DNA of 27,911 bases from an uncultured Acidimicrobiales bacterium (GCA_943788915.1 CALSSD010000011.1:1-27911), one strand, 5' to 3'. Shown: positions 1-9,000, counted from the first letter of the stretch. Numbers: made by a program.

Positions 1-3000
1 CTTGCCGAATCTGGAACGACCTAGTTTGAACCACTCGTCCACCGGTCACAACTCTTTGAATCGCTCAGCGAGCACCTTCTGCCTCGTATCGCCCACAATC
101 GGCCTCGAGTGCGAATAACACTGAATCCCTCAGCGTCAATGGCACCGAACGTCCCGTATTCAAAGTCCATGTCAACGAAGAAGCTCTCGCAGAGAGATGC
201 TCCAGTGAGGCCAACCGAGCCCGCATCAACGTCGCGGTGGCACCCTTGGTGAAAGATGGCTACCGGTTCGTTCGTTTTCAGACAAACCACATTTGTCGGG
301 CAACAAGTAAGGCGATCACGATGCAAAACGCGATGACTTCTTTGACTAGCAGACCCCATTCGACGCGTTGATCAGCGGCCACCTCTTCCTCGTGGGCCTC
401 TCGTGCGGTCCGTCCATCGGCGAGTCTGATGTCAAAGTCAGACGTCATGGCATCGAGCTTGCGACGCAGCTCAGGCTCGTTGTAGCTAAGGCTGGCTGAC
501 AGCACGTCTAGGTCTCGGTCACGCAGGACAAGCCCGCTGCCCGGCTGTTGACCACGCAGCTTGTAGACCAATGAGACGTAGCCCTGCAGCACATCTTCGA
601 CATGTATCGAGTTGAAACTCATTGCCGTGTCGCCGACCTTGAGCTCCTGCCGGTCAAGATCCAAAATCAATTCAGACCGCAGAGGTACGACTGGTCCGGC
701 ATCGACTTCGTAGAGACCTGCAAGCTGCCCAATGAGTCCGCCGTCGAGTGTGAGCTCGCCTCGCTCGGCTTTCTCGAGATAGTTCTGCGTGAACAAGCCA
801 TTGGACCGCGCGGCCATATCGGCTATTTCCTGACCCTGTGCAGAACGGCACTCGACCATAAGTGCGCCGAAACGAGCCGGTGGCACGAGCGATTCGACGC
901 GTTGAACAGCGGCCACCTCTTCCTCGTGGGCCTCTCGTGCGGTCCGTCCATCGGCGAGGCTACTGTCAAAGTCAGACGTCATGGCATCGAGACCTGACCA
1001 GTCTTCTCGGTTTTGTCCCATGACATCTCAGCGCCTCGTGCTTCCTTGATGTACGAGGTAAACGTGACGGCGCACAGCAACGGCCCATACCCACAGATAT
1101 AGACAAGAATTGGGCTGAGCCACTTCAGGCGTCGGCGAGATTCGGTCAACTTTGCCGCCCAGGCGCCAAGCATAGATCCGGCCAGCCAGACGTAGGCGAA
1201 CAGGATCACCAATCGTAGAACCGGGCCTGTAGTCGGAATGTGGATCAGCTCCATCGTCCCGAGCATGGCCCAGCTGAACGGCTTCGGGAACCAGGCATAG
1301 ACAATCATCGCAAGCGAGATCAGACCGGGAAAGCCCACAGCCTCACGCCAAGTTCTTCGTCCGGTATCGGGGTCGATCATCAGCGTGTAAGTGGTAATAA
1401 AGAGGTAACAAATAGCGTTCACGATCCAAAGCAACTTGAACGCCGCCCAAGAGAGCGGGAAATCGATGAAGAACAGGGCGGTGAGGCTGGCCGAGGCGAG
1501 GATCATGAAGATCGGCATCAGAAACAAACAGAACCAAGAAAGACCAAAGCTGAAACTACCAAGCCGGTGCCCAGGGTTCGGGCGAAACCACAGCTTCTTG
1601 TAGCGAAACGAGACCTGCACGTTGCCTCGCGCCCACCGCAATCGCTGCTTCCAGAGGCCGTCGATGTCGGCCGGTTCTTCGGCCCAGACTGTGGCGTTAC
1701 CGTCGAACACAACCTTGTTGCCCGCAAGCTGCGTCTTGAATGTGGTGAAGGTGTCCTCAGCGAGTGAACTCGTATCAATTTGACCCCCGATCTTTTCGAG
1801 GTTGGCGCGGGTGTGTAGCTGGGCGCCGCCGGCGAGACAGGCCATCGCTCCGAGTACGTTCTGGCTTCGACGAACCGCCGCTTGGGCAGTGATGTACTCG
1901 TAGGCAATAAATCGCTTCATCCAGTTCGCCGGCCTGCTTCCTTCCTTGATGTACGCTGTGACCGCTCCAACCTCAGGGTCAGCGAAGTGCCTGGTCATCT
2001 TTCGCAACGAGTCGGGTTCATAGATGACGTCTGCGTCCATGATGAGAAGCGCCTGCATCCAATCGTTGGCAAGGATCTGCTTCAGCCCGTGGTTGAGTGT
2101 GTGGGCCTTTCCCTCACCTCCCTTCTTCCGCCTTAGGTGCACGACCTGGCCGGGGTTCTCCTGGCCCTTGGCGATGACGACATCCGGCGTCTGGTCAGTG
2201 CTGGCATCGTCGACGACATAAATACGAAGCCGATCCGCAGGGTAATCGAGCAGCAGGAGACGATCGATCGAGCTGCCGATGACAGCTGCTTCGTTCCACG
2301 CAGGGACCAAAATCGCAACGCGCGGAAACCGAGGCTCAACCTTGCCATAGTGGTTGCGCACCGCGTGCAAGCCAATAATAGCGAACTGATACGACGCCGT
2401 GGCAAGAGGAAATACACCCAGCATTACCAAGACCACCAAGGTCCAGCGACCGACCATGTCGGCCAGAACGACAGCTTCTCGTAGCATCGACATCAGACGA
2501 GGGCGAGACTCCCGGCGACGTCCGCTACATGGCAGTAGCGCCCGATCGTATCGGCACGGTGACTATCGGTCGAAGCCACAAGCTCTACTCCAGCAGCCCG
2601 GAGCAACTTCGCAGTGTGGGCTGAAGGGCAAGCCCACCGCTCGGAAATCTCGACGCGTCCGCCTGCGTTTGCCAGCCGGCGACCAAGCGCTGTGATCTGA
2701 TTTTCTGAGACCATGAGCTCGGTGAGTCCACACTTAGGCAGGACCGAAAACAGGTGGGCAATCAACACGTTGTCATACCGTTCAGCGGCAGCTGCTGTCG
2801 CCTCGAGAATGTTCTCAATCACGTCTGCCGGCTTCAACTGTTTGTCGGAGATCATCCGAGCGACGGACGCAGGCACATAGGTCTGTGACCCGATGGGTAC
2901 TTGATGATCCGCAGCCACGATGGAATCGATCTCTCGCAGCGAACCAGGCAGATCGAGTCGACCGGTGGTATCGAGCAACTTGGCCTCAACCCCACAGGTA

Positions 3001-6000: not shown

Positions 6001-9000
6001 AAGCCTCTCACTTTTTCGGCCTCACGGTGCCGAGCGGTGAGCATCATGACCGGAACATCGCTGACATCTCGTATCCGCTGCAGCACTTCCCAACCGTCTA
6101 TATCAGGCAATCCAATGTCGACAATCACACAATCGGGGGTGCTTGCGTTAAGCAGTCGAAGACCCGAACGACCATCGACTGCCTCCAGGACTTGGAGCCC
6201 AGCTCGTTTGAGTAAAATGGATAGCGCCCACCTGACATCAGGTTCATCCTCGATCATGAGCACGGTTCTGGTGTCGTTCACGACAGTGCCTGATCAGGAA
6301 TCGCAAACTCGAAGCATGAACCGACACTCTCTTGACTTTCGACCGTGATCGTACCTCCGTGCAAATCGACGATCGCCTTTGCTATAGCTAGACCAAGGCC
6401 AGTGCCGGGCGTGGATTGGGCGGTTGCCGCACCTCGAAAAAACGATTCAAAGAGACGTGACTGCTCAGACTCGGGAATGCCGATACCGTCGTCCCTCACG
6501 GCAAACACCCAGCCTGTAGGATTGCGTCGAACAGTGAGATCAACGCTTCCTCCGGACTCAGAGAACTTGACGGCGTTGGACAGCAGATTGTCCAGCACTT
6601 GGCCGATGCGACCCTGGTCTGCATACAGGGTTGGCCCTCGCTCGACCGAACTTTTTATCCTCACACCAGCGGCGACGGCCCGCTGATCCGCTAACGCAAG
6701 CGCCCATTCAACGATGTCGGCAACCCGACAGGTGATGGGTTGAATCGTTGTAACACCAGACTCAAGCTGCCCAAGGAGCAACAAGTCATCGACCAGACGA
6801 ATCAGACGCTTAGCGTTGCGGTCGATAACACCGATGAACTCCTGCTGCTCAACTTCTGTGACGGGACCATCGTCGCCGATTAAGAGGTTGGCGAAGCTAA
6901 CGATCGATGTCAGCGGCGTTCGCAGCTCGTGCGACACCATAGCGACAAGCTCAGTTTTGAGATCCGCTACCTCCCTGAGCATACGCGCCTGTTCCTCGGC
7001 CTTCTCTCGAAGTCTGCGCTCTGCCTCCAAGAGGTGCTTTCGGGTTTTTTCAAGCGTTATTTGAGAGCTGATATCTCGATAGAGCCAGAGGTGACCATGG
7101 AGTTCGTTTTCAAGCTCGACCGGGATGTAGTCCCTCTCCATGACGCGCCCATCAACAAAATCAACCCTTTCGCCGAACACTTGGATTCGGTCTGCAACCC
7201 GGTCCGCAATGGTCACGTTGAACAATTTCGGGTCGACAACTAATTCGTCAATGAGCGATCGAAGGCCAGATGTCGGTTTGCCAATCAGCTCATTCATATC
7301 GCCCTGATAATCGAGAATCGAAAGAAAGGCTTCATTCGCAACCGCTATTTTTTCTTCCTGATCAACAAAGAACACTCCATCGTCAAGCGACATGACCAGC
7401 GCAGATAAACGCGATGAGGTCTGACGTAGATCACTTTCGCGCGCTCGTTGTTCGGTGACGTCCCGATTGATCAACACAAGCCCACTCTCAGCAGGTTGGT
7501 TGGTCACGTTCTCGGCGACGGTCTCAATCACACGCCAAGTGCCATCGGAGGCACGCATTCGCAGATCGATTGGGTTGGCTAATCGATCGGTTTCGGATAT
7601 CTCGACGAACGCCTCCTGCGCTCTGGCAACATCATCGACGTGCACTATTCCAAAGATGCCGCTCTCGGGTTCGAAGCTCTTCTCGTAACCCAAAAGCCCA
7701 ACGCGGATGTTGCGAGCCACCACCTTGAGTCGGTTGAGTCGGCTCTCGGCCTGATGGACAGAGTCAACTTCGGAGCGGACTTCTCCAGGTTTGGTGATCT
7801 CACGCAGCAAACCAGTGAACAACGGACCCCCATGGCTCTCCAACACCGAGATATACAGCTCGGCTATGAACCGGTTGCCATCCGCTCGCAGAGCTGGCAA
7901 CGTGAGTAGGGAGTTCACTGCGCTGGTCTCTCCAGTGTCGAGATACCGGGCCAGACCAGCCCGGTGAGCTTCGCGTAGCTCCTCCGGAACGATCAGATCA
8001 GCGAGCTCCTCCCCAAGAGCATCAGCATAAGACCAGCCAAACAGAGTTTCGGCGGCAAGATTCCAATCGACGACCCGACCGCTGCCATTCATCGTAACGA
8101 CGGCATAAGGCAAGGGATCCAGAATCACGGTAGCGGTTTGCTGTCGGTGGATCTCAGCAAAGCCTGTAAGTGCCGTCCGGCTCTCGCCGCGCTCTTTCAC
8201 AGTTATTTCGCTTCCTCTGGCGGCCTGACCGTTATATCGGACTCTACTCATGCGAGCCTCAAAGCGTGAGTAAACAAACAAACCCTGTCGAATAATCGCA
8301 GCTTCCTGTGGGGCATCAGTAACCCATGCACCTCAGAGTCTTCCGATATTGATTCAGATTCGAGATGCAGCCCGTGTCAGAAACACCAGCGCTGCTCGTC
8401 CAATGAATCAGCTAACAACAATTACCGAACCGATCACGGTGAGATCGGTGGTGGTGGTGGCCGTCCGTTCACGTGCCTTTATATGTACCTGTAACAGCTT
8501 CATCATCATGGCGAAAGTATTACCAATCACCGCACGACTGGGCGTAGAACAAACGAAGTTGCACCCTCAGGCATGTGCGTACCGATGATGCATGTGCGAT
8601 AGTCGAGCCGTGGATAAACACAATGGCGAAAACCAGCACCCACCGGCGAAACCCGAACCCCACGAGCCACTCAACAAGGCCCTCATTGCCCGGCTTGTTC
8701 TCGCGGCCACGATCGTTGCGATCTTCGTCATCTTCGCGGTCCAGAACACCAAGAGTGTGACGATCGAATTTCTCTCGTGGGACTTCAAACTCAGTCAGTT
8801 CCTGATGATGATGCTCTCAGCTGTAGCCGGTGTCGTGATCTGGGAGTTCGCTGGTGTTTATTCAAAGCGGGCCAAGAAGAGACGCTCGTCATGAGCCCGA
8901 TACTGTCGAGCCTTCACCAAAGATAACCACGGTTCGGCAGAGCCTAAAGACCTCACATGGTCGAGCATGTTCCCAAAGAGCATCGGTATTGTCCCCCATC

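What a model noticed while it worked through the whole genome (the two positions that open the first line are those of the whole stretch)
979..8251. Response regulator with a PIG-L deacetylase output in a PNAG-like polysaccharide operon
g03963 (359 aa) fuses a phospho-receiver domain to a PIG-L/LmbE-type N-acetylglucosaminyl deacetylase and sits in one operon with a PAS histidine kinase, an OmpR-type regulator, an ATP-grasp enzyme, a PHP hydrolase and a PgaC-like GT2 synthase. I read it as a polysaccharide (PNAG-like) deacetylase whose activity is switched directly by phosphorylation, so that the charge of the exopolymer is set post-synthetically by a two-component signal. New would be an enzymatic response-regulator output class not in the catalogues.
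Evidence so far: Pfam Response_reg + PIG-L on one 359-aa frame; YaiS 37.6% over 134-294; operon g03960-g03966 on one strand. No match at E<=1e-45 in 150 other Actinomycetota genomes sampled. No paper with 'response regulator' + 'receiver domain' + 'PIG-L'.
(Added by a program. Inside this text positions count along the whole contig: contig position 1 is position 1 of the stretch shown here. "Call 12" and the like, gene names such as g00115 and contig names such as C1 are that model's own, and its searches are not shown. The text may have been shortened before it was handed on; [...] marks where a part breaks off. The agent that wrote the report below was given it as the finding of a first reader that could run no searches.)

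Follow-up and report, generated by a model that had tools for sequence, protein, structure and literature searches.

The report
Phosphorylation-gated glycan-tailoring gene cassette
A signalling switch fused to a sugar-deacetylating enzyme sits in a conserved, apparently unstudied gene set that probably builds a chemically modified surface polysaccharide; the fusion itself is already catalogued, and the product is probably not the known biofilm polymer PNAG.

Summary
The 359-aa receiver + PIG-L/LmbE fusion is real, intact and not a binning artefact, but it is not a new output class: P2CS already lists an 'LmbE' response-regulator family. It is patchy but widespread (Actinomycetota, Legionella, Myxococcota, Gemmatimonadota; one branch of the PIG-L tree). 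The PNAG reading fails: the GT2 is far below the PgaC/IcaA cut-off, nothing resembles PgaB, and the enzyme has no export signal, so it cannot edit exported polymer. Diderm copies add a TPR/beta-barrel exporter. Best reading (about 50%): a cytoplasmic PAS kinase phosphorylates Asp62; the deacetylase frees a hexosamine amine, the ligase re-acylates it with a phosphorylated acid, the phosphatase trims it, and the GT2 complex polymerises and exports an N-acyl-modified glycan. Substrate, product and direction of control are inferred, not shown.

The parts
6278..8251 (-). Cytoplasmic PAS-PAS-PAS histidine kinase (HisKA + HATPase_c); ORF open from TTG 8281, ATG at 8251; no membrane helix
   Evidence: Pfam; hydropathy; H-box SHELRTPLTSIVSF matches kinases of related cassettes
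5592..6281 (-). OmpR-type response regulator (REC + Trans_reg_C); accessory, found in 5 of 115 related loci
   Evidence: Pfam; locus counts; same position in L087 and G485/L173
5268..5591 (.). 324-bp gap between the signalling pair and the biosynthetic block; possible promoter region, none detected
   Evidence: 0 sigma-70-like sites, 0 terminators
4188..5267 (-). REC-PIG-L/LmbE fusion, 359 aa: receiver 14-123 (acid pocket E18 D19 D20, phospho-acceptor D62, T90, K112); deacetylase about 135-331 (H143-P-D145-D146, R182, H238-Q-D240-H241)
   Evidence: AlphaFold model mean pLDDT 91.4; fold hits TT1542, BshB, chitobiose deacetylase
3200..4207 (-). ATP-grasp ligase (PylC-like_N + ATPgrasp_Ter; PRK12767-like), predicted amide-bond former
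   Evidence: D118, K119, K155, E193, N268, R270 kept in 87 of 87 locus copies
2493..3203 (-). PHP-family metallo-phosphoesterase; replaced by His_Phos_1 or HAD phosphatases in other loci
   Evidence: H12, D17, H42, E73, H100 in 73 of 73 copies; replacements
979..2493 (-). Membrane GT2 glycosyltransferase, 504 aa, with D95-D96, D153-A-D155, E246-D247 and Q283-R-L-R-W287; its own conserved family, not a PgaC orthologue
278..982 (-). Small single-helix membrane protein coupled to the GT2 stop (ATGA overlap); here lengthened in frame by a 534-nt insert, with a complete 56-aa copy at 448-278; candidate accessory subunit of the synthase
   Evidence: 56 of 62 loci; 44 of 47 start 4 nt inside the GT2 stop; complex model 0.90 vs best control 0.00
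358..991 (.). 100-nt direct repeats (358-457 and 892-991, 96%) bracketing the insert in the small gene
   Evidence: insert present at cassette depth in runs X11, X14, X15
8504..8924 (.). Start of the backbone shared with contig C4; the cassette lies left of it as strain-variable DNA

Best explanation
A synthase-dependent surface-glycan system with a cytoplasmic N-acyl tailoring module that is gated by two-component phosphorylation. The soluble PAS kinase phosphorylates Asp62 of the REC-PIG-L protein (inferred). That changes the activity of the attached zinc de-N-acetylase, probably through receiver-driven assembly of the enzyme oligomer; the direction is unknown (inferred). The enzyme removes acetate from an N-acetyl-hexosamine on a cytoplasmic precursor or on the accessible end of the growing chain; the ATP-grasp ligase puts a different, phosphorylated carboxylic acid on the freed amine; the phosphatase removes the phosphate (inferred from gene content). 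The GT2 with its small membrane subunit polymerises and translocates the product; diderm hosts add a TPR/beta-barrel channel. Shown here: domain content, intact catalytic residues, cytoplasmic character, gene linkage, phosphatase replacement. Not shown: any activity, substrate or product.
For: Receiver and deacetylase residues kept in 120 of 120 closest homologues. In 76 fusion loci with >=3.5 kb downstream, ATP-grasp in 66, GT2 in 60, PHP in 59, all three in 54. The phosphatase slot is filled by three unrelated folds: PHP, His_Phos_1 (L035, L161) and HAD (stand-alone PIG-L loci such as L038, L049, L056), which points to a phosphorylated intermediate. Stand-alone sister PIG-L genes sit either with ATP-grasp + HAD + GT2 + UDP-GlcNAc 2-epimerase (L043, L049, L059) or with WbqC + DegT aminotransferase, mostly with a Glycos_transf_4 gene (L055, L057, L066, L070), i.e. 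amino-sugar N-acylation modules (WbqC as a putative glycyl transferase is recalled). No signal peptide or membrane helix in kinase, REC-PIG-L, ATP-grasp or PHP. LmbE-like enzymes act on N-acetyl/N-acyl-glucosamine cores, and BshB needs a strand-swapped dimer for activity (PMC4101496). A GT2 / ATP-dependent amide ligase / phosphatase cycle on a growing chain is shown for the Campylobacter capsule (PMC13276843). Kinase core in 58 of 117 sources; in 22 of these the only receiver found is in REC-PIG-L, and in 14 the kinase lies directly upstream; the window kinase shares the TSIVS[FY] stretch of these kinases, while the other 8 H-boxes found in the genome share at most 2 of 6 residues. All 4 named diderm loci with this GT2 carry a TPR protein ending in an amphipathic-strand domain, none of the 23 named Actinomycetota loci does. 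GT2 and small protein modelled as a complex: 0.90, best of 3 controls 0.00, runs agree in 100% of contacts, partner pLDDT 87; the mark was reached by 116 of 157 solved and 2 of 215 mismatched pairs.
Against: No biochemical data for any member. The best structural match of the GT2 is the archaeal mannosyltransferase PcManGT (Z 29.8, rmsd 3.3, 341 aligned), above hyaluronan synthase (25.1) and BcsA (24.7), so processivity is not established. Two Legionella loci (L030, L031) and L007 have no phosphatase gene in the fetched DNA; Leifsonia loci L008 and L010 lack the GT2; 10 of 76 loci have none of the three partners. No sugar-nucleotide gene in the window names the monomer. Among 83 distant 50%-cluster representatives with both full domains only 64 keep the receiver motif and 54 the full deacetylase set; Legionella receivers have E-P-N/D in the acid pocket and no kinase nearby, so phospho-control is not universal. 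14 of 39 loci with both flanks show no kinase. In the window an OmpR regulator sits between kinase and fusion and could be the kinase's only partner. The loci are top-scoring hits and include close kin, so the counts are not independent.
Confidence: 0.5

Rival explanations
1. Two separate cytoplasmic edits: REC-PIG-L simply deacetylates a residue of the nascent chain or primer and leaves a free amine (NodB-like logic), while ligase and phosphatase amidate a different group, for example a uronic acid with a phosphorylated amino alcohol as in the Campylobacter capsule. Still phospho-regulated, and it would set polymer charge, but during synthesis.
For: Ligase + phosphatase amidation of glucuronate on a growing chain is established (PMC13276843, PMC11800379). 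Same linkage and cytoplasmic data as the best explanation.
Against: No UDP-sugar dehydrogenase or amino-alcohol-phosphate enzyme recurs in the neighbour families of the loci clustered; the ligase hits PylC-like_N/ATPgrasp_Ter, not the TupA type; sister PIG-L genes sit beside amide-forming genes in two different module types.
Confidence: 0.2
2. The GT2 is a non-processive membrane transferase that makes a glycolipid or short lipid-linked glycan, and the deacetylase / ligase / phosphatase tailor its head group, in the order used for mycothiol or bacillithiol (glycosylate, dephosphorylate, deacetylate, re-acylate; recalled).
For: PcManGT is the best sequence hit (E 8.7e-21) and best structural hit (Z 29.8); that it is non-processive is recalled. 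L117 pairs REC-PIG-L and ATP-grasp with a GT4. PIG-L itself acts on a glycolipid (PMC4101496).
Against: The GT2 has more membrane helices than PcManGT and aligns over more residues to polymer synthases (370-389 vs 341); a TPR/beta-barrel gene accompanies it in all 4 named diderm loci and in none of 23 Actinomycetota loci, the pattern of polymer export.
Confidence: 0.15
3. The receiver does not gate catalysis: it is a phosphate sink, a docking module, or the PIG-L domain is a ligand sensor; the real control is transcriptional through the OmpR regulator or stand-alone receivers.
For: OmpR gene abuts the kinase in the window. Pseudo-receivers and pseudo-enzymes exist in the family (19 and 29 of 83 distant representatives). 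Orphan copies without biosynthetic genes exist (10 of 76).
Against: OmpR is present in only 5 of 115 loci; both domains are fully conserved together in 120 of 120 close homologues; the fusion has persisted as one branch across four phyla.
Confidence: 0.1
4. One reading: a PNAG-like polymer is deacetylated after synthesis by the response regulator, which sets the charge of the exported polymer.
For: PgaC_IcaA is the best-scoring NCBIfam model for the GT2; a small membrane subunit and, in diderms, a TPR-barrel protein parallel PgaD and PgaA.
Against: 131.9 bits vs cut-off 422.3; 26% to PgaC; no similarity to PgaB; no export signal; small protein has no Pfam PgaD hit; TPR-barrel proteins score 36-87 against a PgaA cut-off of 366.65; ligase and phosphatase have no place in PNAG synthesis.
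Confidence: 0.05

Closest known systems
P2CS 'LmbE' response-regulator family
   Same: Receiver plus LmbE/PIG-L output; the family name stands in the list of 35 P2CS families (PMC9487997, passage), a scheme taken from Galperin's classification (PMC3013651, passage). JGI automatic names such as 'LmbE family N-acetylglucosaminyl deacetylase/CheY-like chemotaxis protein' also exist.
   Different: I saw only the name, not the family definition. No paper on function, gene context or kinase partner was found in 10 searches.
LmbE-like deacetylases BshB, TT1542, Dac, MshB, E. coli YaiS
   Same: HXDD + H metal motif, Rossmann-like fold (TM-score 0.83 to TT1542 by target length), 38% to YaiS.
   Different: None has a receiver. 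YaiS falls outside the fused branch; its operon has an acyltransferase and the barrel YaiO, and YaiP is only 25% like this GT2.
Synthase-dependent exopolysaccharide systems (Pga/Ica PNAG, Bcs cellulose, hyaluronan synthase)
   Same: Membrane GT2 with DxD, ED and QxxRW motifs, a small membrane partner, TPR + beta-barrel export in diderms; one myxococcal locus also has a BcsB-like gene.
   Different: Not a PgaC or BcsA orthologue; no secreted CE4 deacetylase, PilZ or GGDEF domain in the window's cassette; tailoring enzymes are cytoplasmic; control appears to be by phosphorylation of an enzyme rather than c-di-GMP.
Campylobacter jejuni capsule amidation (Cj1438 ligase + Cj1435 phosphatase; HS19.11/HS19.09)
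   Same: GT2, ATP-dependent amide ligase and phosphatase acting in turn on a growing chain in the cytoplasm (PMC13276843, PMC11800379, passages).
   Different: There the sugar supplies the carboxylate, the ligase is TupA-like, the GT2s are soluble and there is no deacetylase or receiver.
Enzyme-output response regulators (CheB, PleD, REC-BcsA-like GT of Methanobacteriaceae)
   Same: Receiver attached to a metabolic enzyme, placing it under environmental control (PMC5847659, section 14 read).
   Different: Here the output is a metallo-amidohydrolase inside a biosynthetic cassette, spread over several phyla rather than one family.

Membership tests
Phosphorylatable receiver (REC) | Acid pocket, phospho-acceptor Asp, Thr/Ser and Lys | tested here: met
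   E18 D19 D20, D62, T90, K112; D19, D62, T/S90, K112 in 120 of 120 close homologues; 64 of 83 distant representatives
Phosphorylatable receiver (REC) | Phosphorylated by a cognate kinase | not testable with these tools
   Only linkage and H-box similarity
LmbE-like (PIG-L) metallohydrolases | HXD1D2 + distal H metal motif, spacer 97-148 residues or close | tested here: met
   H143, D145, D146, H241 (spacer about 95) in 120 of 120; motif as defined in PMC4101496
LmbE-like (PIG-L) metallohydrolases | Rossmann-like LmbE fold | tested here: met
   Foldseek top hits 1uan, 2ixd, 8bgo, 6p2t, E about 1e-14
LmbE-like (PIG-L) metallohydrolases | Hydrolyses an N-acetyl/N-acyl-glucosamine amide | not testable with these tools
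   The family also holds the hydratase GalB (5cgz), so activity needs an assay
P2CS LmbE response-regulator family | Receiver fused to an LmbE/PIG-L domain | tested here: met
   Architecture; family name; the definition itself was not readable, so the match rests on the name
PNAG system (Pga/Ica) | PgaC/IcaA synthase above the curated cut-off | tested here: not met
   TIGR03937 131.9 vs 422.3 bits; 26% to PgaC
PNAG system (Pga/Ica) | Exported PgaB/IcaB-type deacetylase in the locus | tested here: not met
   No similarity to PgaB, best E 0.46; no signal peptide; no such domain among the cassette genes
PNAG system (Pga/Ica) | PgaD/IcaD-family subunit | tested here: inconclusive
   No Pfam hit for the 61 C-terminal residues at E<=1, but a small coupled membrane protein is modelled on the GT2: analogue, not shown homologue
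PNAG system (Pga/Ica) | Product is partly deacetylated beta-1,6-GlcNAc | not testable with these tools
   Needs glycan chemistry
Synthase-dependent exopolysaccharide systems | Inner-membrane GT2 with D, DxD, (T)ED and QxxRW motifs and several membrane helices | tested here: met
   D95/D96, D153-A-D155, E246-D247, Q283, R284, R286, W287 invariant in 35 of 35; hydrophobic helices
Synthase-dependent exopolysaccharide systems | TPR scaffold plus outer-membrane beta-barrel in diderms | tested here: met
   4 of 4 named diderm loci with the GT2; TPR by Pfam, barrel inferred from strand periodicity and aromatic C-terminus, not folded
Synthase-dependent exopolysaccharide systems | Processive polymerisation through a membrane channel | tested here: inconclusive
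   Best structural hit PcManGT Z 29.8, then hyaluronan synthase 25.1 and BcsA 24.7
E. coli yaiXOPS-type locus | YaiS deacetylase with YaiP GT2, YaiX acyltransferase and YaiO barrel | tested here: not met
   YaiS 38% but outside the fused branch; YaiP 25% over 218 columns; no similarity between YaiO and the Legionella TPR-barrel protein; no acyltransferase in the cassette
Campylobacter capsule amidation module | TupA-like ATP-grasp ligase acting on a uronic acid | tested here: not met
   Ligase hits PylC-like_N and ATPgrasp_Ter, no TupA family at E<=0.01; works like it, is not a member

The most novel reading that the evidence does not exclude
An undescribed synthase-dependent exopolysaccharide system, present in at least four phyla, in which the monomer's N-acetyl group is swapped in the cytoplasm for another acyl group by a deacetylase / ATP-grasp ligase / phosphatase relay, the first step being switched directly by kinase phosphorylation instead of c-di-GMP, with a new small membrane subunit on the synthase.
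Probability: 0.35. Interest if true: 0.72.

Novelty: new variant of a known kind. Interest (0 to 1): 0.5.

Why it matters
It would give a function and a pathway to a response-regulator family that has been catalogued by name but, as far as the searches show, never studied, and it would add a type of bacterial surface-glycan machine in which a two-component signal acts straight on a biosynthetic enzyme. The cassette occurs in cultured, harmless actinobacteria, so the product and the switch can be tested directly. The window's copy is an ordinary member of this family on strain-variable DNA of a marine actinobacterium; the interest lies in the system, not in this copy.

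Tried and rejected
Mis-binning or chimera: rejected, an independent contig spans 929-10500. Assembly artefact for the 534-nt insert: no contig joint skips it and it has cassette depth in three runs. Promoter/terminator scan of the 324-bp gap: nothing. Rfam on the whole window: 0 matches. Plasmid collection: no match at E<=1e-30. YaiO as the homologue of the diderm barrel: no similarity. ESM Atlas: the fusion returns REC + PIG-L clusters only; the small protein only unnamed clusters under 0.9, no lead. RNA runs: X15 covers the whole stretch evenly, like DNA; X17 has contigs of a 93-99% relative on GT2, ATP-grasp, REC-PIG-L and kinase and none in the 324-bp gap; neither shows transcription. 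CE4 deacetylases (PF01522) exist elsewhere in G000 and three relatives, unlinked to the cassette, so they say nothing on PNAG. G525 and G656, hit at E<=1e-60 in the class search, are stand-alone PIG-L genes, not fusions. L084 first looked like a stand-alone gene inside the fused branch but is a frameshifted REC-PIG-L. Earlier findings of this scan: none by sequence or words. Literature searches gave no paper on the cassette or on a characterised REC-PIG-L protein; Galperin 2006 and 2010 and Iyer 2009 were not available, nor the P2CS supplement with the family table; these could hold more on the fusion. The kinase-receiver complex was not modelled, so that pairing rests on linkage only. The careful tree did not finish; the quick tree is used.

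Full report
Observation. The window holds one 359-aa frame at 5267-4188 on the minus strand with a receiver domain (14-123) and a PIG-L domain (138-251 by Pfam; the fold runs to about 331). It is 38% identical to E. coli YaiS over 134-294. Upstream lie a soluble PAS-PAS-PAS histidine kinase and an OmpR-type regulator; downstream an ATP-grasp enzyme, a PHP hydrolase and a membrane GT2. The genes form two coupled blocks 324 bp apart, not one continuous run. The first 8.5 kb is missing from contig C4, which matches the rest of the window (88% for the first 431 bases, then 97-98%); the assembly holds several such duplicated contigs. The cassette is therefore strain-variable. It is not mis-binned: run X11, from a study not flagged as a source, has one contig over 929-10500 with 58 differences, and four unflagged marine DNA runs from four studies hold 97% of the sampled words.

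Both domains look active. In the best 120 of 3759 database hits, all of which carry both Pfam domains, D19, D62, T/S90 and K112 of the receiver and H143, D145, D146, R182, H238, D240 and H241 of the deacetylase are kept in 120 of 120. The HXDD + H motif is the one defined for LmbE-like enzymes (PMC4101496, abstract and first part read, plus passages). The model (pLDDT 91.4) matches TT1542, BshB and chitobiose deacetylase best. At greater distance the picture frays: of the best 150 representatives at 50% identity, 93 have both domains, 83 with a full receiver, and of these 64 keep the receiver motif and 54 the full deacetylase set. Legionella receivers are degenerate in the acid pocket.

Distribution. 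The fusion is patchy, not rare: 4 of 401 phylum genomes at E<=1e-40 (own included) and 6 of 401 class genomes at E<=1e-60, two of which are stand-alone PIG-L genes. At 3 in 400, missing it in 150 genomes has a chance of about one in three (my arithmetic). A capped GTDB scan gave 35 full-length loci among the best 80, in many Actinomycetota families plus Legionella, Lysobacterales, Polyangiaceae and Longimicrobiales. On a quick tree of 84 PIG-L domains, all 38 fused copies plus one frameshifted fusion (L084) lie on one side of a branch with SH-aLRT 99; YaiS lies outside. One origin is consistent with this; the tree is midpoint-rooted and unfinished, so it is not shown.

The output class is already catalogued. 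A 2022 paper lists the 35 response-regulator families of the P2CS database, and LmbE is among them (PMC9487997, passage); the P2CS paper says the 35 families follow Galperin's classification (PMC3013651, passage). I could not read the family table or Galperin's papers, so the identity rests on the name, which is the standard name of the PIG-L family. Two other P2CS papers do not mention it in the text (PMC4384028, PMC2716373; term search). Ten searches (listings seen) found no paper on function or gene context; most subscription papers are not in the library.

The cassette. In 115 fusion loci (35 GTDB, 80 metagenome; top-scoring, not independent), ATP-grasp follows in 77 of 89 with at least 1.2 kb downstream; of 76 with at least 3.5 kb, 66 have ATP-grasp, 60 GT2, 59 PHP, 54 all three and 10 none. 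The GT2 is a family of its own (best 120 hits at 64% or more), 26% to PgaC and far below the PgaC/IcaA cut-off. The phosphatase is replaced by a histidine phosphatase in L035 and L161 and by HAD enzymes beside stand-alone PIG-L genes; L007, L030 and L031 show none. Sister stand-alone PIG-L genes occur with ATP-grasp, HAD, GT2 and UDP-GlcNAc 2-epimerase, or with WbqC, a DegT aminotransferase and a Glycos_transf_4 gene. These are cytoplasmic amino-sugar tailoring modules; WbqC as a putative glycyl transferase is recalled, not tested.

A missed gene. A 42-93 aa protein with one C-terminal membrane helix follows the GT2 in 56 of 62 loci with enough DNA; 44 of 47 mapped starts overlap the GT2 stop by 4 nt. 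It has no Pfam hit. A model of GT2 with the window's 56-aa copy scores 0.90 against a best control of 0.00; the three runs agree in 100% of contacts and the partner's pLDDT is 87. That mark was reached by 116 of 157 solved complexes and 2 of 215 mismatched pairs; the counts hold roughly because my alignments were used, and it supports binding without showing it. In this strain the gene is lengthened in frame by 534 nt between 100-nt repeats; the insert resembles part of a gene on C10 and is present in three runs.

Export. All 4 named diderm loci with this GT2 (three Legionella, one Polyangiaceae) carry a TPR protein whose last 230 residues have strand-type periodicity and an aromatic end, homologous to each other; none of the 23 named Actinomycetota loci does. 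The Polyangiaceae locus also has a BcsB-like gene. This is the layout of synthase-dependent polymer export. Against it, the best structural match of the GT2 model is PcManGT (Z 29.8), ahead of hyaluronan synthase and BcsA.

Signalling. A kinase core occurs in 58 of 117 sources (window plus 116 loci, many short); in 22 the only receiver found is the fusion's, and in 14 the kinase lies directly upstream. The window kinase carries the same TSIVS[FY] stretch after the H-box as those kinases, whereas the 8 other H-boxes found in the genome share at most 2 of 6 residues. OmpR is in only 5 of 115 loci, though the closest relatives keep the kinase-OmpR-gap-fusion order. In L102, L113 and L115 a CheR gene stands upstream instead. 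14 of 39 loci with both flanks have no kinase.

Mechanism. None of kinase, fusion, ligase or phosphatase has a signal peptide or membrane helix, and the fusion has no similarity to PgaB, so it cannot edit an exported polymer. The most economical reading is an N-acyl exchange in the cytoplasm: deacetylate, ligate a phosphorylated acid, dephosphorylate, polymerise. A GT2, ligase and phosphatase cycle on a growing chain is shown for the Campylobacter capsule, with the carboxylate on the sugar (PMC13276843 and PMC11800379, passages). BshB needs a strand-swapped dimer for activity, which offers a route for receiver dimerisation to gate the enzyme; that step is my inference. I give this 0.5; separate edits 0.2; glycolipid product 0.15; receiver not gating catalysis 0.1; post-export PNAG editing 0.05.

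Verdict. The feature is real. The domain fusion is a known, named but apparently unstudied class, and the PNAG label is not supported. The conserved cassette, its interchangeable phosphatase, its small synthase partner and its diderm export gene were not found in print and make a testable new variant of synthase-dependent glycan systems. Interest 0.5.

Noticed in passing
window 278-991: The small gene after the GT2 carries a 534-nt in-frame insert between 100-nt 96% direct repeats; the insert is about 60% like the N-terminal part of an unrelated gene at C10:500418-501515. It yields a 234-aa fusion and leaves an intact 56-aa copy; seen in three independent runs.
   Followed up: partly
L102:6605-7849, L113:5070-7840, L115:2339-3928: CheR (and CheB) genes directly upstream of REC-PIG-L in place of a histidine kinase, suggesting input from a chemosensory system.
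   Followed up: no
L013:4647-5735, L022, L026, L033, L034, L149: Second or orphan REC-PIG-L copies; in L013, L022, L026, L033 and L034 the substrate-pocket residues diverge (R182 and/or D204-T205, P264-S265), mostly without ligase, phosphatase or GT2; possible change of substrate or sensor role.
   Followed up: partly
L030, L031, L035 (Legionella) and L036 (Streptomyces): Receiver decay (acid pocket E-P-N/D, or lost Lys) in loci without a kinase; many 50%-cluster representatives have a barely recognisable receiver in front of the PIG-L domain.
   Followed up: partly
L029:7698-9485: REC-REC-PIG-L in one frame; the first receiver is 56% like the window's OmpR receiver, as if the regulator had fused to the enzyme.
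   Followed up: no
L047, L055, L057, L066, L068, L070: A module of WbqC + stand-alone PIG-L + DegT aminotransferase, mostly with a Glycos_transf_4 gene, in Nitrospirota, Omnitrophota, Bacillota, Schekmanbacteria and archaea; one search (WbqC + deacetylase) found no paper on it.
   Followed up: partly
L040-L043, L049, L050, L059, L063, L067, L176, L177: A sister actinobacterial cassette: stand-alone PIG-L, a different GT2, ATP-grasp, and in most a UDP-GlcNAc 2-epimerase and HAD phosphatase.
   Followed up: partly
L008, L010 (Leifsonia): Cassette keeps REC-PIG-L, ATP-grasp, PHP, the kinase and (L010) the small membrane gene but has lost the GT2.
   Followed up: no
window 8504-9975 against C4:50877-50044: The C4 strain lacks two blocks (8925-9356 and 9772-9974), cutting into the short-chain dehydrogenase gene; the same joints appear in run X15.
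   Followed up: no
window 11400-26480: Ordinary backbone: SerB phosphatase, acyltransferase, GNAT, AMP-binding enzyme, amino-acid ABC transporter with two unusually long permeases (552 and 673 aa), rhodanese, Crp-type regulator.
   Followed up: no
L032:2902-6861: Gyrase subunit A with a LAGLIDADG intein in a Motilibacteraceae genome.
   Followed up: no
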